From the NCBI GenBank assembly GCA_964641255.1, contig CAZXMM010000001.1, forward strand, positions 15,757 through 79,756: a stretch of DNA of 64,000 nucleotides, read 5' to 3'. Below, one piece after another: positions 3,291 to 27,737 of the stretch (its first letter is position 1; each line of letters opens with the position of its first letter). The DNA is from an uncultured Gammaproteobacteria bacterium (GTDB lineage: Bacteria; Patescibacteriota; Microgenomatia; JAMCZE01). The notes beneath the pieces are model-generated. The model ran no database searches. It was not told the origin of the DNA and was given only the letters and a program-made list of their open reading frames with translations. Position numbers and translations under genes: made by a program.

Positions 3291-3358
3291 GGGGGTGTAG
3301 TTTACGCAAAATTTTCAGCGCAAGTTGAAAGACGAAGGTTCGATCCCTTCCACCTCCA
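3291..3358 (+). other. tRNA-like 3' fragment: acceptor stem plus canonical T-arm, no recognisable D or anticodon arm
   Basis: GGGGGTG...GAAGG-TTCGATC-CCTTC-CACCTCCA. The 7-bp acceptor helix (one G-U pair) and the T-loop TTCGATC are canonical, but the middle 34 nt fold into no cloverleaf. Confidence 0.25.
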
Positions 3359-3360
3359 CT

Positions 3361-13600: not shown

Positions 13601-13865
13601 GTAAGTAGCATTATATCAACTGGTTGCAAACCGAGTCCAGATTCTAGATTGGCTCTAGGCTCTCACGATTAAATCCTCTCCCGTTTCGCTACGGGCGATT
13701 GACACTGAGCACAAAAAAAACTAAAATTGCTCATAGCAACGCGGGGTAGTGTAAAGTTGCATGTCAGGCTAGTAGAAGTGGGCCCTATGAGGAGTAATCT
13801 TCATAAGAAAATTTGGCTATATCGGTGGACAACCTCAATGTAAGTTGGGGTCAATACCGAGGGAA

Positions 13866-13885
13866 CCCAAGAAGACATTCTTGGG
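13866..13885. repeat. perfect inverted repeat CCCAAGAA-gaca-TTCTTGGG, candidate att/recombinase site
   Basis: 8-bp perfect arms with no adjacent U-run, about 70 bp from the serine recombinase stop. Confidence 0.45.
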
Positions 13886-13914
13886 ACTCCGTAGAGACTA
13901 AACGCCAAGCTCCC

Positions 13915-13929
13915 GCACTAAGTTAGTGC
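13915..13929. repeat. 15-bp perfect palindrome GCACTAAGTTAGTGC
   Basis: Seen directly, 24 bp downstream of the recombinase stop. Confidence 0.45.
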
Positions 13930-13952
13930 AGGATGATGATATAGTCCTACCC

Positions 13953-15725
13953 TTACAGTAATGTAAGAAGGTGCATAATCTGACGGTCCCAGTGCGATTC
14001 TGGGCCCCGCAACAAAGTAGGAACAGCCGAGACAAACTCGGCTGTTTTTGTTACATCGACGGTCTCCTCATTAGGTACAATCCTTTTCCCAATAATTGGA
14101 ACCTGCTTTTTCATCTCGACAATCTTTTCAAAGTAAAACGGACTGTCAAAATCAACTGTTTTATCTTGGAGGGTTAGGTGCAATCCACTTAACCCAATAA
14201 AGATATCGCGTTTGACTTTCGGATCAGTGGTTATGGCGAATGTCTTGCGAGCCTGGGCAGCAAAAGAAATAACTTTAACAGTTTCGTCATTGGCTTGGAT
14301 CATTCGCTCGTCAATGTTGCCGATTTGTTTTTCCACCACTTTAATTCCCGCTTCAAGTTCGAGCTTTCTTATTTTGAATTCCTCGTCACTTAACAAACTA
14401 CCATCAGTATTGGCTGGTGAGATCTTGAGAGCTACCAAGTTGTCTAGTCGCTTCCTAGAGTCATCGTAGGCTTTCTTAGTGGCATCGATAGTAGTCTCCC
14501 GAAACTGTTTCTCTTCCTCCTGCATTAAGCGAAGTTGGTCAATGGCCCATTCGAGAAAAAGGGGACTAAGCTCTATCTCTGCTAATCGCTGGTCAGTCTG
14601 CCGTTCCAATTCTTTGTCGCTGATGGAAAGCTCTTTGCAAAGTTTGCTTTTCTTGCGGCCACAACGGTTGTAAACGTAGTAGCGCATGGTCGGGTTAGTC
14701 ATGTCCTTAATGAAAGTGTCGCAGTGGGGACAATGATCTTGAACCTTTTTCGTGAGTTGAAATTTAGTCCGACAGTTAGTGCAGACTACTTGCCATTTTC
14801 CGTCTGTTACAACACCGGATGCACAAAAACCACACTTCATAGTGTGGGCATAGGTGTAGTTATGCTTGGTCTTGTACTGACTGACCTTCCCAAGTTTTAT
14901 TTGAACTTGCTCAAATACTTCAGGACTTATAGCCCGTTCAAGAGTAGGATTACTTTCAAACCAGTTGCCGCTTCCCACGGGATATTCAAACTTACCGCTA
15001 TAGAAAGGATTATTAAGAATCATATAAACTTCACTGAGGCAAAGTGGCCTTCCGCCAATCCTTTTCTTTTGTGGAGTAGTGAGGTGCCACTCTTCCTGGC
15101 TAAGCCGAAGGATTTCTGTTACCGGAGTGCCACTCAAAAAGAGCTCGAAGACTTTCTTTACAAACGGGAAGCGTTCCGGATCGAGGTATATCCGGCGTAG
15201 ACCACTCTCCGTGCCTTTGTCGTTAAGGTAACCTAGCGGCGCCCAGCCGGGCCGCCAGCCCTCTCGACATTTTTTCTCTAGTCCTCGTGAGACCACGATA
15301 CTCTTGTCATCACTATCCTTCTTAGAATTAGCAAACTCGACAGAAAGCATCCACTTGTCTTCCGGGGTATTTCGATAAATCCGGCTTGGTGTCCTGATTT
15401 CAATTAGCTTGCCCATATCCATAAGGTTAATGACGTCTCCTCCGTCTGACATGTTTCTTGCCAAGCGGTTGGCGTGCCAAGTGGCTATAGCATTAGCTTT
15501 ACCGGTGTCAATGAGGGAGAGCATTTCGCTAAATTTTTCTCTCTGTCGAGGTATGTGGGCAGATTTGCTTTCCTGAAGAATGTCGATTATTGTAAGTCCT
15601 TGTTTAGATTTTAAGCCCTCAAGAATAAAGAGTTGGTCCGGCAACGAAGCCGCCTGTCTTTCCTTATTATCTTCCGAGCTCTTTCGTGCGTAGCCAATAT
15701 ATTTTAGAGTAACTTGAGTGTCCAT
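13953..15725 (-). CDS. large serine recombinase (resolvase/invertase N-terminal domain, recombinase domain, zinc ribbon)
   Basis: YIGYARKSSEDN catalytic-Ser region, long recombinase domain, CGFC...CTNC...CPHC zinc ribbon, C-terminal coiled coil. ATG at 15725; the track ORF starts further upstream. Confidence 0.8.
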   Translation of the reverse strand: MDTQVTLKYIGYARKSSEDNKERQAASLPDQLFILEGLKSKQGLTIIDILQESKSAHIPRQREKFSEMLSLIDTGKANAIATWHANRLARNMSDGGDVINLMDMGKLIEIRTPSRIYRNTPEDKWMLSVEFANSKKDSDDKSIVVSRGLEKKCREGWRPGWAPLGYLNDKGTESGLRRIYLDPERFPFVKKVFELFLSGTPVTEILRLSQEEWHLTTPQKKRIGGRPLCLSEVYMILNNPFYSGKFEYPVGSGNWFESNPTLERAISPEVFEQVQIKLGKVSQYKTKHNYTYAHTMKCGFCASGVVTDGKWQVVCTNCRTKFQLTKKVQDHCPHCDTFIKDMTNPTMRYYVYNRCGRKKSKLCKELSISDKELERQTDQRLAEIELSPLFLEWAIDQLRLMQEEEKQFRETTIDATKKAYDDSRKRLDNLVALKISPANTDGSLLSDEEFKIRKLELEAGIKVVEKQIGNIDERMIQANDETVKVISFAAQARKTFAITTDPKVKRDIFIGLSGLHLTLQDKTVDFDSPFYFEKIVEMKKQVPIIGKRIVPNEETVDVTKTAEFVSAVPTLLRGPESHWDRQIMHLLTLL

Positions 15726-15843
15726 AATAATGCCCCCGCCGGTTGTAGTCAGAACGGTGAAGTCCTGTCCGACGAGGGCATTAAAAAACTCCACCGAAAG
15801 TTCTGACTACACTTTAATTATTTAGCTGTTCTTTATGATTGTC

Positions 15844-15996
15844 AAATTAAGATTTTTTACCATTACCATAGATTGCTTTAACAATCCAGATAAGCCTTCT
15901 TGAGTATTCGTGAGCTTCTTGTTCGGTCAATATGACTCCATATTCCTCGAAATACAGTTTCTTAAATTTCTCTATAGCTTGTTGAGACAATCGCAT
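15844..15996 (-). CDS. small hypothetical ORF (50 aa), not in the supplied track
   Basis: ATG lies 2 nt after the stop of the upstream gene. Translates MRLSQQAIEKFKKLYFEEYGVILTEQEAHEYSRRLIWIVKAIYGNGKKS. Confidence 0.25.
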
Positions 15997-15998
15997 GT

Positions 15999-16250
15999 CT
16001 AGCCCTCTTCCCTAAAAGCATCAAAAGCCAGCATTAAGTCTTCTTCGGTTTCATACCACCCATCGTTCCAGAAATCTGACATTTCTCCGTAGCTGTCTTC
16101 ATGCTTGCCATAGGAAATCCGCAGATAGACTTTTATTGGCCCATGTTGCCAATTTATCGTGCGTATAATTTTCAAAAAACGGCGCAAAGAACCTGTTCCG
16201 ACCCTAATGACCTCCACATCGTTTTTAATGATTTTTAGTATGTACTTCAT
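15999..16250 (-). CDS. hypothetical protein (83 aa)
   Basis: ORF overlaps the upstream gene by 4 nt, suggesting an operon. No family recognised. Confidence 0.4.
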   Translation of the reverse strand: MKYILKIIKNDVEVIRVGTGSLRRFLKIIRTINWQHGPIKVYLRISYGKHEDSYGEMSDFWNDGWYETEEDLMLAFDAFREEG

Positions 16251-16810
16251 GCCTTGTCGGTTGATTTACTACGATTTTTTCGTCTTCTTGGCTTTCGATG
16301 CCCGATTGCTGAAGTAAAATACTTCGCCGGATTTTCAAATGTTTTCCAACCTCCCGTAGAGCTTTTAAGCATTTCATTCAGAGTTCTATTAATTGCTCGG
16401 GGGTTGTGACGTTGGGCAATATATAACCAATGATTTGGCTTTTCGGGCCAAGGCCATTCCTTGAAGAGTTCACCTAACAGCGCGGCTACTTCCATAGGAG
16501 GGGTAAGGTAATTGCTATTTTTTAGTTTGCTGATAAGTGATAGCTTAGGCTCGGTAAACTCGAAGTTACCTTCTTGTTTACAAGTACCACTAACCAATCC
16601 ACTAACACTTCCATTCTCACTCTCAATCGCTGTGTTAATAGTTTCATAAGGTTTGCTCTTAACTGGGTGAGACTCGGCAATAGCCTCGCAAGCCAGAAGT
16701 TGATCTTCAATGGACAAGCCACAGTCGGGATCATAACGTGCCCCGTAGCTCTCGATTTTGCGGATCAATCTATTTTTGTAGGTATTCTCCCTATCCATAA
16801 GCAATAACAA
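16247..16810 (-). CDS. hypothetical protein with basic C-terminal tail (possibly DNA-binding)
   Basis: 187 aa ending GHRKPRRRKNRSKSTDKA. No family recognised. Confidence 0.4.
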   Translation of the reverse strand: MLLLMDRENTYKNRLIRKIESYGARYDPDCGLSIEDQLLACEAIAESHPVKSKPYETINTAIESENGSVSGLVSGTCKQEGNFEFTEPKLSLISKLKNSNYLTPPMEVAALLGELFKEWPWPEKPNHWLYIAQRHNPRAINRTLNEMLKSSTGGWKTFENPAKYFTSAIGHRKPRRRKNRSKSTDKA

Positions 16811-16856
16811 AAAACCTGCACCGTTGGGAGCCGATGCAGGTTTTGTCTCCCAACGA
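16809..16856. promoter_or_regulatory. two mutually exclusive 8-9-bp hairpins plus a U-run, immediately upstream of the 16810 start (attenuator-like or bidirectional terminator)
   Basis: AACCTGCA...TGCAGGTT with flanking A5/T5, and CGTTGGGAG...CTCCCAACG, sharing sequence. Seen directly. Confidence 0.4.
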
Positions 16857-17015
16857 TAGTTTTGGGATATCCTATCGAAGGAAGTAATTGGTAGGTACTA
16901 GATAATTGGGGTAAACCCCTTGGCTACATTTGCACTGTGCGAATTGTGCTCAGAGATCCTTTGTTAAATTCCAGGAATATCTTTCCATTATCTAGATGCG
17001 GGGACGACGTCCTTA

Positions 17016-17216
17016 TTGATATTATTTGCCAGTCTAGTACTAATCTCCATGACTATTCCACTCTTATCAGCACGAGAATACCGTTTGAAATATGGAATTA
17101 GAAAAAGTACTTTTTATGACAGAGTGAGGAAAAACAAAATTGTGGCTTTCAAAGTCTCGCCGAGAAAACTTTGGTTGTTGCCCCTGTCGTATCGCATTAG
17201 CAGCATAAGTTATTAG
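17016..17216 (+). CDS. excisionase/AlpA-like HTH (HTH_17) small DNA-binding protein
   Basis: LLSAREYRLKYGIRKSTFYDRVRKNKIVAFKVSPRKLWLL aligns with the Xis/AlpA pattern (L-s-e-a-l-gv-sr-T-y-w---G-lp--kig-r-w). The start codon is uncertain. Confidence 0.4.
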   Translation: MILFASLVLISMTIPLLSAREYRLKYGIRKSTFYDRVRKNKIVAFKVSPRKLWLLPLSYRISSISY

Positions 17217-17288
17217 GCCCGATCATGTCTGGACGTCAACTAATCTTTGGATGCCCTCCCCGCCTTGCGGTTGCTCCCGGTACCGGCT

Positions 17289-17501
17289 CTACCTAAAAAG
17301 TTCGCTTACGGAGATTCTTAATGCTTTAGCCAAACTAGATATTTTCTCAAGGGAGGGATTACGCTCGCCCCGTTCGATTGCACCCATGTAGCTTCTCTCA
17401 ATACCAGCAATATGAGCGAGTGCCTCTTGGCTTGGTCCCATCTGCTTTCTTAGTTTTCTGATATTTTCGCCGAAGTTTTTCTGGACTTTCGTATTGGCCA
17501 T
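17289..17501 (-). CDS. XRE-family (Cro/CI-like) HTH transcriptional regulator
   Basis: IRKLRKQMGPSQEALAHIAGIERSYMGAIERGERNPSLEKISSLAKAL is a canonical HTH_3 domain. ATG at 17501; the track ORF begins at a TTG at 17510. Confidence 0.75.
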   Translation of the reverse strand: MANTKVQKNFGENIRKLRKQMGPSQEALAHIAGIERSYMGAIERGERNPSLEKISSLAKALRISVSELFR

Positions 17502-17540
17502 ATTGACCAATTGTCGACACCAGTGCTACTATGAGTCCAC

Positions 17541-17566
17541 GTGATATATCACTCAGTAATGAGTGA
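17541..17566. promoter_or_regulatory. composite palindromic operator candidate between the XRE gene and the divergent operon
   Basis: GTGATATATCAC (12-bp perfect palindrome) overlapping TCACTCA-gtaa-TGAGTGA (7-bp arms). Confidence 0.45.
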
Positions 17567-17604
17567 TTAGCTCGTAACAGGGCTATCTTAGATGGAGATG
17601 TAAT

Positions 17605-17859
17605 ATGAAGAGGTATCTCACCGAAAGTGAGACCAACAAAGACCCGCTTCTTAGAACCCTTGCAAATGTGGAGCCGGTGGTGGGATGGATTGTCTACATC
17701 GGGATTGGTATTTATTTCATCCTCACTTGGAATTTCTATGTCACCGCCGTCACTTTCCTCATCTATACGTTTATCATTTCTCCTCTGCTTGTTGAATTTG
17801 TTTTAGACCGTTTGATGATGGCAATCTACTACTTAATTAGGGGGATGCCAAAAATATAA
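17605..17859 (+). CDS. hypothetical 2-TM membrane protein
   Basis: 84 aa. GGAG Shine-Dalgarno sits 8 nt upstream. The stop overlaps the next start (TAATG). Confidence 0.45.
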   Translation: MKRYLTESETNKDPLLRTLANVEPVVGWIVYIGIGIYFILTWNFYVTAVTFLIYTFIISPLLVEFVLDRLMMAIYYLIRGMPKI

Positions 17860-18479
17860 TGTTTGGCTTTTTTAAATCACCTAAAGACAGCTTTTATGAA
17901 CAATTGAAACGAGCGACGTATGAAGCCGCCATACTGGTCGACAAAAAGGATATAACAGGTAAAGAAAAAAACGTTTTGTACAGTATTATCGCAACCGGAG
18001 GATTATTCCCGACTATTTACTCACAGCCTCTCGATCTTGGTGATGGCAAATTATTAATAAGTGACGCAGATTTTGAATGTACGAGAGACAAAAAGCCCGG
18101 TGCTCTTTTACCAATTTTTTGTGTTTATTGCCTCTTTAACCTAATTGAAGTATCGAAAAACGATAAAGTCTTTGGGGCAAGATTTAACAAAATATTGCCG
18201 GGAGTGAAGACTGTCCTCTCCGAAGTAACGGATCTTGAACCAAAAGGTATTGACACTCTATTAGATCAACTCGAAGAGCGGGAAGGTGAGGATGGCATCG
18301 GGGCCGTTTATCCTCTCATGTACGCCCAGCCATTAGAGCTTATTTTTGGGTCTGACAGAGCAAAATCAATTCTCTTGGAATTATCTAAAAATCCTCTAGG
18401 TTCAACAGGCATTTCCTTGGCAATTCCATCAATGTTCATCGATTTCATCAAGGGTGTAAAGACGGAGCTTGCCGAATAG
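17859..18479 (+). CDS. hypothetical protein (206 aa)
   Basis: Translationally coupled to the upstream ORF. No family recognised. Confidence 0.45.
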   Translation: MFGFFKSPKDSFYEQLKRATYEAAILVDKKDITGKEKNVLYSIIATGGLFPTIYSQPLDLGDGKLLISDADFECTRDKKPGALLPIFCVYCLFNLIEVSKNDKVFGARFNKILPGVKTVLSEVTDLEPKGIDTLLDQLEEREGEDGIGAVYPLMYAQPLELIFGSDRAKSILLELSKNPLGSTGISLAIPSMFIDFIKGVKTELAE

Positions 18480-18574
18480 TTAGTCATGGTCATTCTCTGT
18501 CCAGCTTCGCAGCACTGCTTGTCCCAATAGCCATCCCCCCCCAACTCCCTAAATCTAGTTATAATAATCTCTCT

Positions 18575-19351
18575 ATGAAGTTGGGCGAACTAATCGAAAA
18601 AGTTACAATTCCATCAAAGCCGGTTAGAGTAATTATTCCTGTAAACGGTAAGCACAAGGCACTATTCTTTCTGGGAACAACAGCAGACGGGAGTCTTATG
18701 GTGGATCCTTCAATTGGATGCAGTTTCGATAATTGGCGGTATAGTTTTTGTACCGTTCCCAGGGGAAAAGTGCAAAATATAAGCGTCCCACTAGATCAAA
18801 AATCGATGATAGAATCCGGGAAAATTGGACCTAAAATTACTTATCATAAGAGTGGCTTTGTAAAGGTAGGTAAAACCAAGCTGTTGGAACCAGTTAGTAT
18901 TTGGGCAACCCCCCTGGATATTGCGTTTGGGCACCTGTTTACATATCAGGCTAAGGGTTTCCAGGGATTCAATTCTGTTACTACGCCCAATCCCAAATAC
19001 TCCGACATAATGCCAATAATACCAGCAGGATTAAAAACGCTAAAAATAGTTGCTCATGCGGGGAAATTGGAACACCTTATACCAACAATGGATCAAGTAA
19101 ATATATCGACACTTAGCAGACCAAATAGGATCTTTGAGAAGGACAATGGTAACTTGACAGAGATATCACTTTTCAAAATTAGCATAGCTTCGAGAGATAT
19201 CTGGATAAAATTAACGTATATTCCAAATTTTATCCTGACCCAGAACCCACAACCTAGCATAAATAGTTTGATTGGCTGGGATCAAGATAAAGCCGACGAT
19301 CTCAGAAAACCACTTAAGTTCGTAGCAATAGCAGCGGGGGGCGACTGGTAA
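18575..19351 (+). CDS. hypothetical protein (258 aa)
   Basis: TATAAT box upstream. Followed by conserved 3' motif copy 1. Confidence 0.45.
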   Translation: MKLGELIEKVTIPSKPVRVIIPVNGKHKALFFLGTTADGSLMVDPSIGCSFDNWRYSFCTVPRGKVQNISVPLDQKSMIESGKIGPKITYHKSGFVKVGKTKLLEPVSIWATPLDIAFGHLFTYQAKGFQGFNSVTTPNPKYSDIMPIIPAGLKTLKIVAHAGKLEHLIPTMDQVNISTLSRPNRIFEKDNGNLTEISLFKISIASRDIWIKLTYIPNFILTQNPQPSINSLIGWDQDKADDLRKPLKFVAIAAGGDW

Positions 19352-19388
19352 TTAATTCCCAAAACTAGATATTGGTATTTCGAGGAAC

Positions 19389-19430
19389 AAATTCCTGATT
19401 TCTTCCATTCCCCGCAACACAAAAATACTT
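19389..19430 (+). repeat. conserved 3'-cassette motif copy 1 (AAATTCCTGATTTCTTCCATTCCCCGCAACAC + A-run)
   Basis: One of four related copies, each 0-40 nt after a stop codon. Confidence 0.6.
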
Positions 19431-19438
19431 GGAGCATA

Positions 19439-19467
19439 AAGACGGTCCGTCTTCGTTTCTTCTTCTT
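19439..19467 (+). terminator. intrinsic terminator (GACGG-tc-CGTC plus T-rich tract)
   Basis: Hairpin followed by TTCGTTTCTTCTTCTT. A TGnTACAAT -10-like box follows at 19470-19478. Confidence 0.45.
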
Positions 19468-19484
19468 AATGCTACAATAGTAAC

Positions 19485-20141
19485 GTGCATACAAGAAAAG
19501 GGAATAGCTTAACTGTTATTCTGTTGGCAATTGCCATATCTTCAGTGGGAATAGTAAGCTACTTTTACTGGAAATCAGAAAATGTCCCCCCCGTCATTCA
19601 AATTCAAGAAAAAATAGTAAATCAAGACAACCCTTCGCAGAATAAATTATCAGAAAACTGGAAATTTCATTTTGACAACCGTCTTGCTTTCCAAGTTAAG
19701 ATTCCTCAAGATGCAGAAACTCAAGTTGTGCCCGCTGGCTTTGACAATGAGATGGGATTTGGTCCCGAGGGAATTTCCAGAATGGAATTCTCCAACAAAG
19801 ACTTTCTAATAAAGGTAGAACCCTCCACAAACAGGAGAAACGACCAAACTTTACAACAACTTGGTGAAACAAGAGAATTTAATGGCCTACCAGGTACTTC
19901 TCACCCAAGTCCTTGTTCAAAAGGTGCAGAGAAAGAAGAAATCCAGTTGCGCAGTGGAACTAAAGCATTTCTATGTGATAGCGTTCTTCCAAGCGGGCGA
20001 AAGTTTGGTATGGCCGCCACGATTTTAGGCAAAAAGTATTTTTACAACATAACAACAGGTAGTATTTATTCTCCAAACTTCACTGATAAAGAACAGGAAA
20101 TTTTTATGGAATTTCTTAACACCTTTCAGCCCACTGATTAG
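19485..20141 (+). CDS. hypothetical signal-anchored secreted protein (218 aa)
   Basis: GTG start at 19485. N-terminal TM helix LTVILLAIAISSVGIVSYFYW. Followed by motif copy 2. Confidence 0.45.
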   Translation: MHTRKGNSLTVILLAIAISSVGIVSYFYWKSENVPPVIQIQEKIVNQDNPSQNKLSENWKFHFDNRLAFQVKIPQDAETQVVPAGFDNEMGFGPEGISRMEFSNKDFLIKVEPSTNRRNDQTLQQLGETREFNGLPGTSHPSPCSKGAEKEEIQLRSGTKAFLCDSVLPSGRKFGMAATILGKKYFYNITTGSIYSPNFTDKEQEIFMEFLNTFQPTD

Positions 20142-20158
20142 TATGAGAGTTTTAGAAA

Positions 20159-20193
20159 CCAATTTCTGATTTCTTCCACTCCCCGCAACAAGG
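20159..20193 (+). repeat. conserved 3'-cassette motif copy 2 (CCAATTTCTGATTTCTTCCACTCCCCGCAACAAGG)
   Basis: Differs from copy 1 by a few substitutions. Confidence 0.6.
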
Positions 20194-20201
20194 AAATTCA
20201 A

Positions 20202-20229
20202 GCCGTATCAACGGCCTGTTTTATTTTTT
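20202..20229 (+). terminator. intrinsic terminator (GCCGT-atca-ACGGC plus TTTTATTTTTT)
   Basis: Hairpin and U-run seen directly. Confidence 0.55.
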
Positions 20230-20251
20230 CTGCCATGATACTATTATTTAC

Positions 20252-20497
20252 ATGAGTCTCTTTAAGAAAATCCTCCGTGTCATTACCATAGTGGTAGTAG
20301 CGTTTCTGCTAATAGGAGTTGCTTATTGGGGATTTAAAAGTGTTTTAGCAAGAGTTGCCCCAGAAAATAGCTTGGTTGATTGTCACTATTTTGATAATGA
20401 CTATGATGCGTGTAGTAAGCGACCAGACTGTTTACCAATCACAATTGGGGGAATTGGTAGCAGCCCAGCAGTTCATAGTTGTCAAACAAAGAAATAA
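20252..20497 (+). CDS. hypothetical small signal-anchored Cys-rich protein (81 aa)
   Basis: N-terminal TM helix. Four Cys in the C-terminal 35 aa (CHYFDNDYDACSKRPDC...HSC). Confidence 0.4.
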   Translation: MSLFKKILRVITIVVVAFLLIGVAYWGFKSVLARVAPENSLVDCHYFDNDYDACSKRPDCLPITIGGIGSSPAVHSCQTKK

Positions 20498-20537
20498 TTT
20501 CTGATTTCTTTCACTTTTCGCAACCAAAAAATCAGGA
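20494..20537 (+). repeat. conserved 3'-cassette motif copy 3 (AATAATTTCTGATTTCTTTCACTTTTCGCAACCAAAAAATCAGG)
   Basis: Overlaps the stop codon. CTGATTT...AAATCAG forms a 7-bp stem around the conserved loop. Confidence 0.6.
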
Positions 20538-20653
20538 GCGTGTAAACAGTCCGTTCGGTTATCCAAGATTATTGCTTCACATTTGTTTATTTCTAAACAA
20601 ACCTCGGACCAAACATTTGATACAATTGTGTTAGATAGTCTTGCGCTAAATAC

Positions 20654-21007
20654 ATGAGAAATAAAAAACTTGCAATCACTACCATAATAGTGGGAGGAAT
20701 AGAAGGTTTACTTGCGCTCTTCCTTTCCTCTTCTTTCCTACCAAAAATCATGCAAGTATACGAAGATTTTGGTGTGAATATCCCAATAACTACCAGCCTT
20801 ACCCCCTATATTTTTATATCCCCCGCCTTATTAAGCCTGATTGTGGGGACCTTAATTTTGACTTCCAAAAACAATAGCAAACGCTACAATTCCTGGGCAA
20901 TAATAATCCTGATAGCAACTCTAATTTTTATTTTTCTGGGTTTGCCCCTACTCTTCTCTGTAGGGTTCCTTTTTCCCATGTTCAACTTAGTAAACGTCAT
21001 AGAATAA
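20654..21007 (+). CDS. hypothetical 3-4-TM membrane protein (117 aa)
   Basis: TGaTACAAT box about 30 nt upstream. Followed by motif copy 4. Confidence 0.4.
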   Translation: MRNKKLAITTIIVGGIEGLLALFLSSSFLPKIMQVYEDFGVNIPITTSLTPYIFISPALLSLIVGTLILTSKNNSKRYNSWAIIILIATLIFIFLGLPLLFSVGFLFPMFNLVNVIE

Positions 21008-21045
21008 GTTCCCAAAGCATGAGAAATTCACTGCGAAAATCTACA

Positions 21046-21090
21046 ATAATTTCTGATTTTTTCTATTCCCGCAACCAAAAAAAAGGGGGG
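21046..21090 (+). repeat. conserved 3'-cassette motif copy 4 (AATAATTTCTGATTTTTTCTATTCCCGCAACCAAAAAAAAGGGGGG)
   Basis: Preceded by ATGAGAAAT at 21019-21028, a 10-mer also found at 20653-20662 around the 20654 start. May mark a truncated cassette. Confidence 0.55.
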
Positions 21091-21098
21091 CGACTTCT

Positions 21099-22721
21099 CT
21101 ATTCACACACTAAGTTTTTAGCATCAGCCTCTCCCAGATAAGCCATTATCTTGCCGTCACTTTGTAACACAGTATCAGTCACTTTAAGGCAGGGATACTT
21201 TTCGTCAACATCCCAAACATAAAGAGTTCCCACTTGGAGCTGACGCTCATCGATGTGGTCGAATCGGTAGGTCTCAAGAAGGTTGCCTCCAAAAGCATGA
21301 GCTCCATTCCGGGTTCCTCCTGAGGCCAAATATTTTTCCGGAGAATAGGCCGTATAAAAAAGTGTGTAAATGAGTGGTTCGTTAAGTCCCGGAGACACAA
21401 CCACAAAAGAATAGTTAGTCTTTTCTTGCTCCATTTTTTGCACTAGCTCTTTCATCCCGCTCCCCCAGATTTTGACTGCCGTAGTCGGTCCATGGAAAAA
21501 ATAGTTGTGGATGTACCAAAAACAACTAAGAACTAGTATCCCCCAAATAAGTACCCCTCCCCACTGTCTATAGCGCCAAGACTGTTGACACCACGAAAGG
21601 CACACCAAAACTCCGTAGCCGGCAAAGACTACTAAAGGAAAAGCCGCTAACAGAATGCGGCGATCAAAAACCGGTAGCGCGGTTAGGGCTCCAGGGATTA
21701 GGGCTACTACTAACCAGCCAAAAAGAAGCAAAAACTCTCTCTTTTGTCGACTCAAAGCAACTCCCCCGATGATGATCAGTGGGGCCATCCATAGATACAG
21801 CAATCTAACTTGGGGAATTTGATTATAAATACTTTGGCCAAAAAGGATGTCTGGACTTGATATTTTTAAAAATCCATTAATTACCGACTCGGCGGTAACA
21901 ATGCGCCGGTTGTGGAGTAGCCCTTGCAACAGATCGCCATTTTGTCGATCAAACTGCAGGGTAGCTAGTCCACTAAGCGCCGCCTGTTGATCAAAAAAAA
22001 TACTGACAGTGTAGGGTCGAGACGCCGCTTCATTTGTCCAAAGAGTTGAGAGTAAAAAGGGTAACGTACACACTGCCAATAAGCAGCTACTGATACTTAG
22101 GTGTTTCCAAAAAGCGAAACGCCAGACAAAAATGGTAAGAATGAGCCAGATGATTGGTACCCAAACTTTACTGGAATGGTAAGTGTAGAAATCCACTCCA
22201 AAAACGCCGGCCGCCAGAATAAAAAACAAGGGCTTTTTCCTCCCTAGTAAAAATAGCCAGACACCAAGAAGTGATAAGGAATAGGCCAGTCCAATTTCAA
22301 TTCCCACCCGAGAGTATTGCACTAGCCAAGGTAGAGCAGCCGTTAAAAAACCCACCAGCAGGGCCAGGCGTTTTCGTCTAAATAGTTCAAAACAAATACC
22401 TACACTTAAACCGATCGCAAGGACTCCAGCTAAAAGTGAAGGCAGTCTAACTGCCCACTCAGAAAGTCCCGCGACATAAACGAAAGGAATAAGGAGATAA
22501 ACGTAGATTGGATTTTTATAATCATCAAAAGAACGAAAGGCTAAGGGATAGGCTTGCCCAAACTCATCGCGACCGGTTTTTAAGAGCGAGTAAGCGTTGT
22601 AGCCTAGGGCCGCTTCGTCGGCACTGATACTGTTGGGTATCTTGGCTAAATTGTAGAGCCGCAGCAGTAAACCCAAAAAAAGAATCAATGAAAAAATTAT
22701 GGCGATAAGTCGATATTTCAT
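21099..22721 (-). CDS. GT39/ArnT-like membrane glycosyltransferase (GT-C fold)
   Basis: 540 aa and polytopic. First loop ADEAALGYNAYSLLKTGRDEFG is typical of the PMT/ArnT family. Confidence 0.75.
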   Translation of the reverse strand: MKYRLIAIIFSLILFLGLLLRLYNLAKIPNSISADEAALGYNAYSLLKTGRDEFGQAYPLAFRSFDDYKNPIYVYLLIPFVYVAGLSEWAVRLPSLLAGVLAIGLSVGICFELFRRKRLALLVGFLTAALPWLVQYSRVGIEIGLAYSLSLLGVWLFLLGRKKPLFFILAAGVFGVDFYTYHSSKVWVPIIWLILTIFVWRFAFWKHLSISSCLLAVCTLPFLLSTLWTNEAASRPYTVSIFFDQQAALSGLATLQFDRQNGDLLQGLLHNRRIVTAESVINGFLKISSPDILFGQSIYNQIPQVRLLYLWMAPLIIIGGVALSRQKREFLLLFGWLVVALIPGALTALPVFDRRILLAAFPLVVFAGYGVLVCLSWCQQSWRYRQWGGVLIWGILVLSCFWYIHNYFFHGPTTAVKIWGSGMKELVQKMEQEKTNYSFVVVSPGLNEPLIYTLFYTAYSPEKYLASGGTRNGAHAFGGNLLETYRFDHIDERQLQVGTLYVWDVDEKYPCLKVTDTVLQSDGKIMAYLGEADAKNLVCE

Positions 22722-23267: not shown

Positions 23268-24113
23268 ATGGACGATAGTCTTACTCAGTTTGTAGATTAC
23301 CTCAAATCCGCGAAAAAAGCTTCTGCCACCATTATCGCGTATAAAAAGGATATCGACCAGCTTCTCGACTTTGTCAAAAAGCAAGGGCGTAGTACGATTG
23401 GTTCCGTAACCACTGAGGATTTAAATAGCTTTCTAGGGGTACTTCAGGCACAAAATTATACCCCCAAGTCGGTATCTCGCAAGATCAATTCGATTAAGAC
23501 CTTTTACCGTTTTCTTAGCCAAAACAAGCTCATTACTAACAACGTCGCCGCAGCTATTAACCACCCGAAGTTTGACACCAAGGCTCCGCGGATTCTCTCG
23601 CGGCTCGAATACCGCGCCCTGCGTGATGCCTCCCGAGACGATAGTCGCATCGCGGCCATCATCGAGCTCCTACTGCAAACTGGAATGCGAATTGGGGAAT
23701 TAGCAGCCCTGCGAGTAGGCTCGATTGGTGATCACTTTTTAAAGATCCCGCCAGTTGAGGGTCACGCCGAACGTGACGTTCCTCTCAACAAATCCGCCAA
23801 ACTGGCCCTAGATCGCTACCTCGCCTTACGACCCAACGTCGACTCTAACGCTCTCTTTATCACTAAAACCGGCCGCCCATTGTTAATTAGAAACATTCGC
23901 ACTGCTATCGACCGCTACTTTAAACTAGCGGGCATTGCCGGAGCTAAGGTCAACGATCTTAGGCACACCTTTATTGCCCACCACCTGGCGGCAGGCACCT
24001 CCCCAGTGCTCATTAGTAAGTTGGTTGGACACAAAAGAATCAGTACTACTGAAAAATATCTTGAGTTTATCAAGGACCTCCCCACGGAAAAAATGAAGCT
24101 GGAAGAGCTTTAA
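23268..24113 (+). CDS. tyrosine site-specific recombinase, XerC/XerD family
   Basis: SAM-like N-terminal domain. Catalytic R (GMRIGEL), HxxR (LRHTF) and GHKRISTTEKY (His/Tyr). Confidence 0.75.
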   Translation: MDDSLTQFVDYLKSAKKASATIIAYKKDIDQLLDFVKKQGRSTIGSVTTEDLNSFLGVLQAQNYTPKSVSRKINSIKTFYRFLSQNKLITNNVAAAINHPKFDTKAPRILSRLEYRALRDASRDDSRIAAIIELLLQTGMRIGELAALRVGSIGDHFLKIPPVEGHAERDVPLNKSAKLALDRYLALRPNVDSNALFITKTGRPLLIRNIRTAIDRYFKLAGIAGAKVNDLRHTFIAHHLAAGTSPVLISKLVGHKRISTTEKYLEFIKDLPTEKMKLEEL

Positions 24114-25364: not shown

Positions 25365-27737
25365 CTAGAAAAGGTGGGACCGAGAGGCGATTTCTGCTTC
25401 CACCTCGCGGATGTCTCGAGCGTATTTGAGAGAAGACAACTCCTTAATCATCTCGGCCACCTTGGGGTTTCTCCCCTGATTGATTTTTTCAAAATCGTGA
25501 TTAATTTCTACACTAAAGACTGGTACCGGCTCGTTTTTAACGAGCGTTTTCATATAACCGTTGTAAGCTTCGACTTTCAGCAGGTCGGATTCGCTAAAGG
25601 TGGGAGAATATTCGTGGGCTAAGAACTGGGCGTCAGCTACCCCGACCCGAAAGGCAATCTTGGTGCCTACGTTACCAAAAATGGCATTTTTGACGTCCTC
25701 TTCGACCTGGGAAATGAACTGATTGGCTACTGTCAGAGCCAGTCCGTACTTGCGAGCCTCGGAGAGGATCACGGCGAAATCAGGAGTGGCAAAATTTTGA
25801 AACTCATCAACATACAGATAGAAAGGTATGCGTTCGGCTTCCGGGATGTCTTGCCGAGAGATAGCTGAGGCTAAAATTTTAGGTACCAACAGGTTGCCAA
25901 TAAAATTACTATTTTCTTCTCCAATTAACCCCTTGGCTAAATTGACAATAATGATCTTGCGCTCATCCATGGCCTTGCGGAAGTCAAAAGCGCTCTTTGA
26001 CTGACCAATAATATTGCGGATCATTTTATTGACCACGAAGCGGCTAAATTTGGAGACGATATAATCTAGGGTCTCAGACTTATGGAACTCAGTAGTAGAG
26101 GCAATTTGCTCGGTCCAAAACCGCTTTACCATCTGGTCACTCACTCTGGGGAGAAGTTCCTGCAGAAATGGCCCACCGGGATCTTGTAGTACGCGCATTA
26201 CTTCAATTAGAGTGCCCTCGGGCATTGCCTCCATGACCGTCAACATGGCATTGCGCACCGAATGTTCGAGACGGGGACCCACAATTCCGGTTTGGTGCGG
26301 GTCGTAGAGCTTATAAAGTAGACCGATAAAGCCCGAGACCACCATGTGACGCTGCATATCACTGTGAGCTTCCATGATATTCCAACCCATTGGTCGGTTT
26401 AAATTTGAGGGATCAAAATAGATTACATCCTCGGCCCGCTCGGGGGGAATCTGTTCCAGAATCTTTTCAAACGTATCGTGAGGATCAATGAAGCACACCC
26501 CTTTACCCTCCCGAATATCTTGCAGGATCATTTGGGACATAAGAAGCGACTTTCCAGTACCAGTGGCACCGATAATATACACGTGGCGCAACCGGTCGGG
26601 ATCAAGCAAATGGACTTCCCGCTCTTGACCCCGAAAAACAGACTTACCCACGAGTAACCCGCCATGATCAGGAACCTGTTGGGGAGCGGGCGCCCGTTTA
26701 GCATTGAGCCAAAAAATACCCGGGGTTTCAATTGATTTATTAGGAAAATGACAAATGGTGGCTAACTCCTCAGCCGATAAAATACTAGGGGTAGCAAATA
26801 ATGGTTGGTAGCGGTAAATAAAGTCGGTCATAAAGTTGTGGGCAATACGGATTTTGTCGCCCGAAAAACCGTTTTGATCCGAAGAAAATTGGGAGAATGA
26901 ACCCTTGAGATTATCTAGTATAGATTTGGCTTGAGCTTTATCGGCGGCACTGACTACAATCCGAATCGAGGTAGAAAAACCCACTTTACTCACTTTATTC
27001 TCAATCGCCTCTAATGTCTTGGCGTCCACGTTAAACTTGGCCTTTTCCGGATCGGCCTCGTTTTTCTTGGTTTTACTAATATACTTTCTTCCCTGACTGC
27101 GCCACTCATTGGGGGCCGGAGCGACAATAAACTGTACCACCGCTCCCTCTCCTTCACTCAGCTTGGCAAGACTGGAAGTGATCTGGGAAAGCGGATCCAC
27201 CGCTAAATCACGAAAGTTCTTAATTGGCATATAATTGGCGGCTTTAAGCTTCAAACTAGCGAAGGCGACCTCTCCTTTTTCCGAAAAAATTGAATGATCT
27301 TCGACTTCCAAAATAGCGGCGCCGTTAAAAGTGGAGTGAATTTGCTTTTCGATCAGATCGCGTTGTTTCTGGGGGACGGACACATAAAACCTGATGTCTC
27401 CGGGCCGACCCACTATCTCAAAAGAGATATGATCCTGAATTCGTAAAAAATCAAAATCAAACCAGCTCGACTTACCACGATAAATCGAATAAAGTGAGGA
27501 AAAAAATTGCTCCATGGCGTCGATCTTGACTTCATTGTCTCTGGGCACCGCTACCTGAAGCAGGACATAATCTAGGGCGTGTTCCTCCCGATTGCGCCAC
27601 TTATAAAACTGGAGGAATAGGTAACCTAACAAGCCCAAGGACACAACCACCAAAGTAATCGTCAGCAGTCCAATAGCTACAATGGCTGTCAGTTCTGGAA
27701 GTTGTAATAAAAAGACGTCAAGGGCAGCGAGATCCAT
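25365..27737 (-). CDS. VirB4/TraC/ConE-like (AAA_10/DUF87-type) membrane-associated P-loop ATPase
   Basis: 790 aa. N-terminal TM helices, Walker A IIGATGTGKS at about residue 395 followed by CFIDPHD, and Walker B YLYVDEFQNF. The architecture matches VirB4-type conjugation/T4SS ATPases. A HerA/FtsK-like ATPase is the alternative. Confidence 0.5.
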   Translation of the reverse strand: MDLAALDVFLLQLPELTAIVAIGLLTITLVVVSLGLLGYLFLQFYKWRNREEHALDYVLLQVAVPRDNEVKIDAMEQFFSSLYSIYRGKSSWFDFDFLRIQDHISFEIVGRPGDIRFYVSVPQKQRDLIEKQIHSTFNGAAILEVEDHSIFSEKGEVAFASLKLKAANYMPIKNFRDLAVDPLSQITSSLAKLSEGEGAVVQFIVAPAPNEWRSQGRKYISKTKKNEADPEKAKFNVDAKTLEAIENKVSKVGFSTSIRIVVSAADKAQAKSILDNLKGSFSQFSSDQNGFSGDKIRIAHNFMTDFIYRYQPLFATPSILSAEELATICHFPNKSIETPGIFWLNAKRAPAPQQVPDHGGLLVGKSVFRGQEREVHLLDPDRLRHVYIIGATGTGKSLLMSQMILQDIREGKGVCFIDPHDTFEKILEQIPPERAEDVIYFDPSNLNRPMGWNIMEAHSDMQRHMVVSGFIGLLYKLYDPHQTGIVGPRLEHSVRNAMLTVMEAMPEGTLIEVMRVLQDPGGPFLQELLPRVSDQMVKRFWTEQIASTTEFHKSETLDYIVSKFSRFVVNKMIRNIIGQSKSAFDFRKAMDERKIIIVNLAKGLIGEENSNFIGNLLVPKILASAISRQDIPEAERIPFYLYVDEFQNFATPDFAVILSEARKYGLALTVANQFISQVEEDVKNAIFGNVGTKIAFRVGVADAQFLAHEYSPTFSESDLLKVEAYNGYMKTLVKNEPVPVFSVEINHDFEKINQGRNPKVAEMIKELSSLKYARDIREVEAEIASRSHLF

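What the first reader, a model, noticed from the sequence alone, without database searches (positions are those of the whole stretch)
19389..21090. Four-copy conserved 3' hairpin motif gives a gene-cassette-like array
Each of the last four island genes (258, 218, 81 and 117 aa) is followed 0-40 nt after its stop by a related element of about 35 nt, AATTTCTGATTTCTTCCAYTCCCCGCAAC[AC]AAAAA. Copies 3 and 4 clearly form a stem (CTGATTT/AAATCAG; T6/A8) around a conserved C-rich loop ending GCAAC. The reading frame is not conserved and TAA/TGA occur in-frame, so the element is non-coding. Copies 1 and 2 are followed by a separate intrinsic terminator and a -10-like box for the next gene. A downstream gene fragment (ATGAGAAAT, 21019) precedes copy 4. 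ORF plus 3' structured site, repeated, is the architecture of integron cassettes, but the attC core sites are absent. This may be a different cassette-recombination site, a 3'-UTR RNA element, or a recombinase target.
Basis: seen in the sequence. Interest (0 to 1): 0.75.

Follow-up and report, generated by a model that had tools for sequence, protein, structure and literature searches.

The report
Serine-recombinase att repeats at initiator tRNA
The four repeats most likely mark where mobile DNA carrying a large serine recombinase, together with three single-gene add-ons, was spliced in behind the initiator tRNA gene of a candidate-phyla-radiation bacterium; each repeat ends with a copy of the tRNA's last nine bases, and the repeats are not a conserved RNA hairpin or an integron site.

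Summary
The four-copy repeat is real and occurs nowhere else in the window, with 0 matches expected by chance. The four copies do not share a hairpin.

Each copy ends in CCCCGCAAC or a near variant. That is the 3' end of the tRNA-fMet gene at 13740-14013, which is split by a group I intron.

A large serine recombinase (LSR) gene abuts that tRNA, and its stop codon lies inside the tRNA gene. Copy 1 closes this 5.4-kb element. Copies 2-4 close three single-gene modules behind it.

The same layout recurs in 10 of 10 related LSR islands from other Microgenomates genomes: tRNA-fMet, LSR, cargo, then a motif on the tRNA strand. Several of these also carry 2-3 motif copies around single genes.

A relative (L041) has the 218-aa gene plus its motif directly behind an intact tRNA-fMet with no LSR, which looks like an empty site.

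Best reading: the copies are att-site arms of LSR integrative elements stacked at one hot spot, much like SCCmec composite islands. It is not an integron, a REP element or a known RNA family.

In other genomes the motif belongs to a longer unit with its own promoter and a tRNA-fMet-like hairpin. That unit remains unexplained.

The parts
13740..14013 (+). Initiator tRNA-fMet(CAU) gene split by a group I intron. My estimates: 5' exon 13740-13770, intron 13771-13973, 3' exon 13974-14013. It ends in CCCCGCAAC (14005-14013), the proposed att core on the attL side.
   Evidence: Rfam RF00028 covers 13761-13968 at 77.4 bits. The exon sequences CGCGGGGTAGTG...GGCT | CATAATCTGAC...CCCCGCAAC were read directly. 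Intronless homologues in L009, L028, L033, L038 and L041 have the same exons.
13953..15794 (-). Large serine recombinase gene (YARKSS catalytic motif). The ORF crosses the core, and its stop codon lies inside the tRNA gene on the antisense strand.
   Evidence: Pfam Resolvase 1e-13 plus Recombinase 5e-7. NCBIfam gives weak XisF/CcrB/CcrA-type hits. The best PDB relative is the SPbeta recombinase YokA, 5.5e-10. There are 722 homologues with E<=1e-30; those carrying source names are Levy-, Gottesman-, Microgenomates or Patescibacteria, with one partial Nitrospirota-labelled hit.
14014..19418 (.). Body of the LSR integrative element: LSR, small conserved ORFs (49, 83 and 187 aa), an XRE repressor at 17289-17510(-), cargo ORFs of 84, 206 and 258 aa, and motif copy 1 at the end.
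   Evidence: The LSR, p49, p187 and XRE have homologues in islands L004, L007, L018 and L024; the distal cargo does not. No PHROG or Pfam hits to phage structural genes.
19379..19418 (+). Motif copy 1. It is the distal (attR-type) end of the LSR element, with core CCCCGCAAC at 19410-19418. It keeps the short stem AGGAA/TTCCT and a TGGTAT remnant of the longer unit.
   Evidence: R1 56.6 bits; sequence.
19419..20189 (+). Module 2: terminator 19439-19453, extended -10 at 19470-19478, 218-aa membrane-anchored ORF 19485-20141, and motif copy 2 at 20150-20189 (core 20181-20189).
   Evidence: Homologues of the ORF in L040 and L041 are each followed by a motif copy, and in L041 the ORF sits 61 nt after an intact tRNA-fMet.
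20190..20524 (+). Module 3: terminator 20202-20215, extended -10 at 20236-20244, 81-aa membrane-anchored Cys-rich ORF 20252-20497, and motif copy 3 at 20485-20524 (core variant TTTCGCAAC at 20516-20524). The stop codon lies inside the motif.
20525..21075 (+). Module 4: extended -10 at 20618-20626, 117-aa multi-pass membrane ORF 20654-21007, and motif copy 4 at 21037-21075 (core variant TCCCGCAAC at 21067-21075, with a 1-nt deletion). This is the last copy and abuts host DNA.
   Evidence: The 540-aa convergent host gene starts at 21099. Downstream synteny (tRNA-Met, DivIC, XerC-like) is shared with other Microgenomates loci.

Best explanation
The motif is the element-side arm (about 20-25 bp) plus the 9-bp common core (CCCCGCAAC) of the attachment site used by a family of large-serine-recombinase (LSR) integrative elements. 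These elements insert at the 3' end of the initiator tRNA gene in Microgenomates (candidate phyla radiation) bacteria.

Proposed mechanism: the LSR recombines the element's site with the tRNA 3' end somewhere inside the shared core. Because the core is identical in both partners, the mature tRNA sequence is preserved. The LSR gene ends up abutting the tRNA. The element's other end, which is the motif, is joined to whatever followed the tRNA before.

The window holds a composite island, in this order:
- tRNA-fMet
- the LSR element, ending in copy 1
- three recombinase-less single-gene modules, ending in copies 2, 3 and 4
- host DNA

Each new arrival at the tRNA pushes earlier arrivals outward, so the copies are direct repeats that bound successive modules.

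Shown: the anatomy, its recurrence in other genomes, the identity of the core to the tRNA end, and an empty-site-like relative.

Inferred: that the LSR is the enzyme, where the crossover lies, and whether the small modules are decayed elements or were moved in trans.
For: 1. The last 9 nt of copies 1 and 2 are identical to the tRNA-fMet 3' end at 14005-14013. Copies 3 and 4 are near variants.

2. An LSR gene lies directly against that tRNA end, and its ORF crosses the core.

3. In all 10 independent LSR islands whose far end could be inspected, there is at least one motif copy on the tRNA strand, 3-9 kb from the LSR. These are the window, L004, L007, L018, L024, L026, L028, L031, L033 and L038. 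In all 9 where the LSR 3' end is on the contig, it abuts or overlaps a tRNA-fMet 3' end.

4. The sequence after the tRNA on the LSR side is conserved across islands (A.AKYRGGAAY). The sequence after the motif is host-type or variable.

5. The flank after the L007 motif matches the flank after the unoccupied L001 tRNA: 82% over a 44-nt alignment that includes the 8-nt shared core, so about 36 nt of true flank.

6. The L041 relative has tRNA-fMet, then 61 nt, then the 218-aa homologue, then a motif, with no LSR. So the window's LSR element plus copy 1 looks like an insertion bounded by the 9-bp direct repeat (the 3' region aligns with z = 4.66).

7. Other genomes also carry multi-copy arrays around single genes: L031 has 3 copies (GIY-YIG, NYN), L033 has 3 (GIY-YIG plus a 191-aa ORF, Fic), and L008, L013 and L018 have 2-3.

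8. Within arrays only the last ~29 nt stay conserved. In L033 that block is 93-100% identical while the 31 nt upstream are 35-42% identical. This is the size of one recombinase half-site plus the core, with a sharp right edge at the core.

9. The window copies have lost the promoter and the 5' hairpin strand of the longer unit but keep this block.
Against: - No excised circle, intact attP junction or strict empty site in a close relative was found. L041 is distant (49% protein identity), and its 5' flank similarity to the flank after copy 1 is not significant (z = 0.57).
- Canonical LSRs recombine attP with attB only, so repeated insertion next to an attL-type site needs explaining.
- The right flanks of copies 1, 3 and 4 resemble each other (CAAAAAAT.A.GGAGCG). 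This fits duplicated attR-type junctions better than simple serial insertion.
- In other genomes the motif is embedded in a ~95-nt unit with a strongly conserved promoter-like box and a hairpin-prone segment. A half-site alone does not explain this.
- Motif copies also occur in loci with no LSR in the stretch sampled (L008-L010, L013, L015) and in inverted arrangements (L001, L011, L030).
Confidence: 0.7

Rival explanations
1. True cassette system. The single-gene modules are recombinase-less mobile cassettes, each carrying a minimal site. The resident LSR excises and inserts them in trans. This would be a serine-recombinase analogue of an integron, or of pseudo-SCC elements, rather than decayed remains of full elements.
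For: Modules of one or two genes bounded by copies recur in the window, L008, L018, L031 and L033. Cargo is hypervariable and often toxin- or defence-like (Fic, NYN, GIY-YIG). The ~29-nt block is 90-100% identical within the L031 and L033 arrays, against a mean of 78% between genomes. This fits sites matched to one resident recombinase. Three independent deletions, each sparing exactly one gene plus its site, would be unparsimonious. In the L031 and L033 arrays the downstream module gene is co-directional with the unit, and in L031 each copy also carries the full promoter.
Against: No presence/absence polymorphism of single modules was seen among contigs carrying identical LSRs. No cargo gene was found at different array positions, except that the 218-aa gene is tRNA-proximal in L041 and second in the window. 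LSRs are not known to recombine identical sites. In L013 the enclosed gene is on the opposite strand.
Confidence: 0.25
2. The motif is the 3' half of a small expressed RNA or a promoter-leader unit. The full unit has a sigma-70 promoter and a ~52-nt transcript that folds as a long hairpin resembling tRNA-fMet stripped of its D and T arms: acceptor-like GCGGGG/CCCCGC plus an anticodon-stem-like TCAGG/TCTGA. This RNA would be the functional entity, for example a tRNA mimic, a processing signal, or an outward promoter that restores expression downstream of the insertion. The window copies would be decayed versions of it.
For: Full units in L003, L013, L026, L028, L031 and L038 carry TAGACA-17 nt-TGGTATAAAT. 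The exact 15-mer AAATCTGGTATAAAT occurs only at units, in 5 distinct genomes. The 54-nt segments fold with z = -2.6 to -6.7 in L001, L003, L004, L008b, L009 and L010. L009 has GGAA/TTCC where others have GGGG/CCCC. Cognate 5'/3' halves fold slightly better than swapped ones (-13.7 vs -12.7 kcal/mol; 165 of 5000 permutations do as well).
Against: RNAalifold finds only a 5-bp stem with no compensatory pairs. The swap test is weak. The inner copies in L033, L018b and all four window copies lack the 5' strand and the promoter, yet keep the 3' block. No Rfam family matches. In the window, separate terminators and promoters follow the copies.
Confidence: 0.15
3. The motif is a site for the nearby Xer-like tyrosine recombinase: a dif or IMEX-type site, or an integron-like attC, with modules inserted by Xer-type recombination.
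For: A XerC/D-like gene (23268-24113) and DivIC lie close to the last copy in the window and in L008-L010, L024, L026, L028 and L038. Tyrosine recombinases can recombine identical sites, which would explain the repeated whole junctions.
Against: In L033 the copies are 9.6-12.5 kb from the Xer gene, on the far side of the island, while the LSR and tRNA are next to it. L007 has no Xer gene within 8 kb. The protein scores as XerC/D/A; the integron-integrase model gives 62.9 bits against a cutoff of 265 and covers only residues 5-188. The motif has no two-arm Xer-type architecture or attC core pair. Cumulative GC skew shows no terminus-like switch at 19-21 kb.
Confidence: 0.04
4. It is a generic intergenic repeat (REP-like) or a terminator family with no link to recombination.
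For: The copies lie in 3' intergenic positions, and terminators are nearby.
Against: There are only four copies in 64 kb, all within 1.7 kb and all on one strand. No shared fold. In other genomes the motif occurs only at the tRNA-fMet/LSR locus.
Confidence: 0.02

Closest known systems
SCC / SCCmec composite islands of staphylococci (CcrAB or CcrC large serine recombinases; attB in the 3' end of rlmH/orfX; direct repeats containing the integration site sequence; ccr-less pseudo-SCC elements). General knowledge; examples in PMC3900703 and PMC7029136 (titles and abstracts only).
   Same: An LSR inserts DNA at the 3' end of a conserved housekeeping gene without destroying it. Several elements stack in tandem. 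Each is bounded by a short direct repeat of the target core. Some stacked units lack a recombinase.
   Different: The target is an RNA gene (the initiator tRNA), not rlmH. The LSR is only distantly related (CcrA/CcrB models score 53-55 bits against cutoffs of 700-900). The modules are as small as a single gene (335-771 bp). The host is a candidate-phyla-radiation bacterium. The element arm sits within a promoter plus tRNA-like hairpin unit, which SCC elements do not have.
Serine-integrase prophages and excision elements that insert in genes (SPbeta SprA/YokA in spsM; Anabaena XisF fdxN element; phiC31, Bxb1, A118). General knowledge.
   Same: The domain architecture is Resolvase + Recombinase. 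The integrase gene lies at the very end of the element next to the att site. The common core is short.
   Different: The element is 5.4 kb with no phage structural genes. It targets a tRNA 3' end, which to my knowledge is typical of tyrosine rather than serine integrases. The att repeats form a tandem array.
tRNA-targeting genomic islands with tyrosine integrases and tandem accretion at tRNA genes. General knowledge.
   Same: Insertion is at the 3' end of a tRNA gene. The tRNA 3' end is repeated directly at the far boundary. Islands accrete serially at one hot spot.
   Different: The recombinase is a serine integrase. The repeat shared with the tRNA is only 9-10 nt and does not include the T arm.
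Integron gene cassettes (IntI, attI, attC)
   Same: An array of promoter-less or single-gene units in the same orientation, each ending in a related ~30-60-nt site.
   Different: There is no IntI. The R''/R' inverted core pair was not seen in the copies I read, though I ran no pattern search for it. The site is conserved in sequence rather than in folded structure. Each window module has its own promoter and terminator.

Membership tests
Serine-integrase (LSR) integrative element, att junctions | A large serine recombinase (Resolvase catalytic domain plus Recombinase domain, more than 400 aa) encoded at one end of the inserted DNA | tested here: met
   ORF 13953-15794(-), 613 aa. Pfam PF00239 1e-13 and PF07508 5e-7. 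YARKSS motif. PDB SPbeta YokA 5.5e-10.
Serine-integrase (LSR) integrative element, att junctions | The inserted DNA is bounded by a short direct repeat identical to the target core | tested here: met
   CCCCGCAAC at 14005-14013 (tRNA end) and at 19410-19418 (copy 1). The same holds in L007, L024, L026, L028, L031, L033 and L038.
Serine-integrase (LSR) integrative element, att junctions | An unoccupied target site exists in relatives | tested here: inconclusive
   L041 has tRNA-fMet followed directly by the 218-aa homologue module, with no LSR. The L001 tRNA flank matches the L007 motif flank. Both relatives are distant, and the 5' flank alignment is not significant.
Serine-integrase (LSR) integrative element, att junctions | A ~50-bp attP with imperfect dyad symmetry around a 2-bp crossover, with recombination catalysed by the LSR | not testable with these tools
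   Only a partial TTCC...GGAA symmetry is seen around the core in reconstructed attP (window, L026; read). It is absent in L033. No activity data exist.
SCC-type composite island | Tandem modules, each delimited by att-core direct repeats, some without a recombinase, at the 3' end of a housekeeping gene | tested here: met
   Four cores lie in direct orientation downstream of the tRNA core. Modules 2-4 have no recombinase.
SCC-type composite island | CcrAB or CcrC recombinase and an rlmH (orfX) target | tested here: not met
   NCBIfam CcrB scores 55.5 bits against a cutoff of 900, and CcrA 53.3 against 700. The target is tRNA-fMet.
Integron cassette array (attC) | An IntI-type tyrosine recombinase with its specific extra domain next to the array | tested here: not met
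   The only tyrosine recombinase (23268-24113, 281 aa) scores as XerC/D/A. TIGR02249 gives 62.9 bits against a cutoff of 265.
Integron cassette array (attC) | attC with inverted R'' (RYYYAAC) and R' (GTTRRRY) cores, conserved as a fold rather than as a sequence | tested here: not met
   The copies are 75-93% identical in sequence, share no fold, and have no conserved GTTRRRY partner after ...CGCAAC (sequence).
REP / generic terminator repeat | Many copies dispersed through the genome after unrelated genes | tested here: not met
   Only 4 copies in 64 kb, all within 19.4-21.1 kb. The rest of the genome was not available.
Described structured RNA family (Rfam 15) | A match to a curated covariance model | tested here: not met
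   No hit at gathering threshold. Only chance-level hits with E>=2 on 19300-21150 and E>=0.37 on the L031 array.
dif / IMEX (Xer-dependent) site | A two-arm Xer site at the replication terminus, with modules inserted by Xer | tested here: not met
   Cumulative GC skew shows no switch at 19-21 kb. The copies are separated from the Xer gene by the whole island in L033.

The most novel reading that the evidence does not exclude
A serine-recombinase counterpart of the integron. A resident LSR at the initiator-tRNA gene captures and shuffles single-gene cassettes that carry a ~30-nt minimal site. In its full form, each site also supplies a strong outward promoter and a tRNA-fMet-like mini-hairpin, so that whatever lies downstream is expressed. 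This would make the tRNA-fMet locus of Microgenomates a dedicated gene-capture platform for membrane, toxin and defence genes.
Probability: 0.15. Interest if true: 0.85.

Novelty: new variant of a known kind. Interest (0 to 1): 0.5.

Why it matters
The finding gives a concrete, testable att site (the tRNA-fMet 3' end plus a ~30-bp element arm) for a large, uncharacterised clade of serine integrases. That clade has 722 homologues at E<=1e-30. Serine integrases with defined sites are sought as genome-engineering tools.

It also identifies a hot spot of gene flux in candidate-phyla-radiation bacteria, whose mobile elements are poorly known. To my knowledge, serine integrases are not usually found targeting a tRNA gene, and two literature searches found no description of this system.

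The stacked single-gene modules and the promoter plus tRNA-like unit raise two questions that could be tested: whether recombinase-less cassettes are moved in trans, and whether the element compensates for cutting the tRNA off from its downstream DNA.

Tried and rejected
- RNA hairpin in the window copies: rejected. They share no fold and have no significant z-score.
- Known RNA family: rejected. Rfam gave nothing at gathering or E-value thresholds.
- CRISPR-like repeat on the reverse strand (GTTGCGGGG...): rejected. Spacings are irregular (771, 335 and 552 nt), and ORFs fill the gaps.
- Short peptide reading through the motif: rejected. Frames are interrupted by TAA/TGA, and copy 4 has a 1-nt deletion.
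- Simple displaced tRNA 3' half, as with tyrosine integrases: rejected. The motif has no T arm and shares only 9-10 nt with the tRNA.
- Crossover in the anticodon-like hairpin loop, which would make the full unit an intact ~50-bp palindromic attP: rejected. Island ends carry whole units, not half units.
- Viral origin: nothing found. There was no motif and no LSR-derived peptide pattern in IMG/VR, and no PHROG hits.
- Circular or excised forms: not found. Contigs L029 and L037 start and end at the island boundaries, but their ends carry tRNA and trailer sequence, so they are integrated forms.
- Population variants of the source contig: none found.
- Homology between the 5' flank of the 218-aa module and the L041 tRNA flank: not significant.
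- The unit promoter box as a generic promoter of these organisms: rejected. The exact 15-mer occurs only at units.
Full report
**Observation**

The region 19389-21090 contains four + strand copies of a ~30-35-nt element, AATTYCTGATTTYTT-N5-7-YYCGCAAC.
- A gapped pattern finds exactly these four in the 64-kb window, against 0.01 expected.
- The repeat finder groups them at 75-100% identity.
- A covariance model built from 16 instances scores them 41.7-56.6 bits, and nothing else in the window exceeds 10.1 bits.
- Each copy starts at most ~40 nt after the stop of the 258-, 218-, 81- or 117-aa ORF. In copy 3 the stop codon lies inside the motif.
- Terminator-like hairpins follow copies 1 and 2.
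- TGnTAnnAT extended -10 boxes precede the next three genes.

The repeat and its cassette-like spacing are therefore real. The claimed conserved hairpin is not. The four copies fold differently, with z-scores of +0.45, +0.64, -0.51 and +0.11, and no Rfam family matches.

**What the motif copies**

All copies end in CCCCGCAAC or a near variant. The same 9-mer ends a gene at 13740-14013, which is an initiator-type tRNA(CAU): CGCGGGGTAGTG...GGCU | CAUAAUCUGAC...CCCCGCAAC. A group I intron interrupts it in the anticodon loop (Rfam RF00028, 77.4 bits; sequence).

A 613-aa large serine recombinase gene (13953-15794, minus strand) lies directly against this tRNA. It has Resolvase and Recombinase domains and a YARKSS motif, and its best solved relative is SPbeta YokA. 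Its ORF crosses the 9-mer and stops inside the tRNA gene on the opposite strand.

Downstream come small conserved ORFs, an XRE repressor, and cargo ORFs with no detectable family.

The "island" is therefore a small LSR integrative element. It begins at the tRNA-fMet 3' end, and its far end is copy 1. The element is bounded by a direct repeat of CCCCGCAAC.

**Recurrence elsewhere**

Scans of the public genome and metagenome collections with the motif returned Microgenomates/Patescibacteria contigs plus a few chance hits. The viral collection returned nothing.

The LSR has 722 homologues at E<=1e-30. I fetched the contexts of six of them. Together with loci found through the motif, this gives:
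- 10 independent LSR islands whose far end could be inspected: the window, L004, L007, L018, L024, L026, L028, L031, L033 and L038.
- 9 in which the LSR 3' end is on the contig.

In 9 of 9, the LSR stop codon lies at or inside a tRNA-fMet 3' end, and the tRNA may or may not have the intron. In 10 of 10, at least one motif copy lies on the tRNA strand at the other end, 3-9 kb away.

The sequence after the tRNA on the LSR side is conserved between islands (A.AKYRGGAAY), whereas the sequence after the motif is host-like. In L007 it matches the trailer that follows the unoccupied tRNA-fMet of L001, at 82% over a 44-nt alignment of which 8 nt are the shared core.

The host backbone is also conserved around the insertion: FtsH, TrpRS, tRNA-fMet, then the insertion, then DivIC and a Xer-like gene.

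**An empty-site-like relative**

The 218-aa cargo protein of module 2 has only two distant homologues, at 49-56% identity. Both genes are followed about 10 nt after the stop by a motif copy, scoring 24.5 and 11.3 bits.

In L041 the gene starts 61 nt after an intact, intronless tRNA-fMet, with no LSR in between. Relative to L041, the window's segment 14014-19418 (the LSR element plus copy 1) is an insertion between the tRNA and the 218-aa module.

The caveats are that the 3' region aligns significantly (z = 4.66) but the 5' flank does not (z = 0.57), and that the relative is distant.

**Arrays**

Multi-copy arrays around single genes are not peculiar to the window.
- L031 has three copies enclosing a GIY-YIG gene and an NYN gene.
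- L033 has three copies enclosing GIY-YIG plus a 191-aa ORF, and a Fic gene.
- L008, L013 and L018 have two or three copies.

Within arrays only the last ~29 nt stay conserved. In L033 that block is 93-100% identical while the preceding 31 nt are 35-42% identical. The block ends sharply at the core.

This is the size and shape expected of one recombinase half-site plus the common core, not of an RNA structure. The window's copies are of this minimal kind.

**Mechanism proposed**

The LSR recombines the element's site with the tRNA 3' end inside the shared 9-bp core. The mature tRNA is unchanged, the LSR gene lands against it, and the element's other arm (the motif) is joined to the former tRNA trailer. 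Later arrivals at the same tRNA push earlier ones outward.

This produces the order tRNA | LSR element-c1 | module-c2 | module-c3 | module-c4 | host.

The closest known parallel is the SCC/SCCmec composite island. There, Ccr serine recombinases insert at the 3' end of rlmH, elements stack in tandem between direct repeats, and some lack ccr (general knowledge; examples PMC3900703 and PMC7029136, found).

By membership, this is not an SCC element: the CcrA/B models score far below cutoff and the target differs. It appears to work in the same way.

Which steps are shown and which are inferred:
- Shown: the anatomy, the recurrence, the core identity and the L041 comparison.
- Inferred: that the LSR is the enzyme, where the crossover lies, and how the small modules arose.

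**What does not fit neatly**

Canonical LSRs recombine only attP with attB, so repeated insertion beside an attL-type junction is not automatic. The flanks after copies 1, 3 and 4 resemble one another (CAAAAAAT.A.GGAGCG). In other genomes two trailer types recur after both tRNAs and motifs:
- ACATTCGACTC plus a hairpin.
- TGAGGNCATTAAAGAAAAAGAGAG plus a terminator.

This looks like whole attR-type junctions being repeated. It leaves room for modules that are moved in trans, which is the cassette reading (probability about 0.15-0.25).

Three independent deletions that each spared one gene and its site would be the alternative.

**The longer unit**

In many other genomes the motif is the 3' half of a ~95-nt unit. 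The unit consists of a full sigma-70-type promoter (TAGACA, 17 nt, TGGTATAAAT), then a ~52-nt segment whose purine-rich 5' strand pairs with the motif.
- The exact 15-mer AAATCTGGTATAAAT is found only at units, in 5 distinct genomes.
- The paired segment has an outer GCGGGG-like/CCCCGC helix and an inner TCAGRAA/TTYCTGA stem.
- It resembles tRNA-fMet without its D and T arms.
- Six of these fold with z = -2.6 to -6.7.

Covariation support is weak. RNAalifold finds a 5-bp stem with no compensatory pairs. A cognate-versus-swapped-halves test gives only 165 of 5000 permutations as good as the real pairing.

The window copies, and the inner copies elsewhere, lack the promoter and the 5' strand. 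This unit may be an outward promoter with a tRNA-like leader that compensates for separating the tRNA from its downstream DNA, or it may be a small RNA. I could not decide, and I list it as unexplained rather than as the function of the window's copies.

**Rivals rejected**

- Integron. There is no IntI: the 281-aa neighbour scores as XerC/D/A, with the integron model at 62.9 bits against a cutoff of 265. There is no R''/R' core pair, and the site is conserved in sequence rather than as a fold.
- Xer/dif. In L033 the copies lie on the far side of the island from the Xer gene, and the GC skew shows no switch.
- REP or generic terminator. There are four copies only, at one locus.
- Phage. There are no structural genes and no viral hits.

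**Verdict**

This is a real, non-random repeat. It is best explained as the att-site arms of serine-integrase elements stacked at the initiator-tRNA gene of a Microgenomates bacterium. It is a new variant of a known kind. Interest is moderate (0.5), and would be higher if trans-mobilised cassettes or a functional tRNA-like RNA were demonstrated.

Noticed in passing
window 13740-14013: The initiator tRNA(CAU) gene is interrupted by a ~203-nt group I intron in the anticodon loop. It also has non-canonical D and T loops: no GG in the D loop, and a T loop of GTGCGATTC instead of TTCGAAT. ARAGORN missed it. Rfam's tRNA model also failed to report the intronless homologues in L009, L028, L033 and L038. 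Intron presence varies between otherwise near-identical tRNAs (L026 has it, L028 does not). Group I introns in Patescibacteria tRNA genes were described recently (PMC13011429).
   Followed up: partly
window 13953-14013 (also L007, L024, L026, L028, L030, L031, L033, L038): The LSR ORF always crosses the att core, and its stop codon lies on the antisense strand inside the tRNA gene. The last 4-21 codons therefore differ between the integrated and the hypothetical circular state.
   Followed up: partly
window 19336-19346 and 21085-21095: The 11-mer GGGGGGCGACT occurs twice: at the end of the 258-aa ORF, 44 nt before copy 1, and 10 nt after copy 4 in the host flank. It could be chance or a trace of an older junction.
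   Followed up: no
L026 7479-7585, L027 7479-7585, L038 7550-7665: LOOT RNA (Rfam RF03000, 72-84 bits) is carried inside the LSR islands of other genomes. No copy is present in the window's island.
   Followed up: no
L001 40-79(-), 1027-1290(-), 2845-2884(+); L011 5888-6075; L030 1799-2210: In some genomes the tRNA-fMet segment is inverted relative to a motif copy and to DivIC/Xer. L001 has inverted motif copies flanking the tRNA. L011 has an 11-nt duplication of the tRNA 5' end followed by a ~105-nt insert. These arrangements suggest site-specific inversions or rearrangements at this locus.
   Followed up: partly
L003, L013, L028, L031 (x3), L038: upstream of each unit: The exact 15-mer AAATCTGGTATAAAT, a promoter-like extended -10, is conserved across genomes whose LSRs are each only ~51-59% identical to the window's LSR. 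It occurs only at motif units. This is stronger conservation than a promoter alone would need.
   Followed up: partly
L009 7148-7411, L030 1917-2162, L031 5445-5690, L033 2162-2443: A small GIY-YIG nuclease gene (81-93 aa) recurs right next to motif copies or the tRNA-fMet trailer in four genomes. It is the only recurrent module gene seen.
   Followed up: no
window 3291-3359: ARAGORN reports a tRNA with an undetermined anticodon ('ca' at position 31). Rfam's tRNA model gives 40.9 bits. This may be another non-canonical tRNA gene.
   Followed up: no
L029 (8043 bp) and L037 (9298 bp): Two independent assemblies produced contigs that begin and end almost exactly at the island boundaries (motif plus trailer at one end, LSR stop plus partial tRNA at the other). 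This hints at assembly-graph branching at the att junctions, which could reflect strain heterogeneity or excision in those samples.
   Followed up: partly
window 25365-27737 (and L026, L033, L038): A 790-aa DUF8128/TraG-D_C (type IV coupling-protein-like) gene is syntenic with the Xer-DivIC-tRNA-fMet neighbourhood in several Microgenomates genomes.
   Followed up: no
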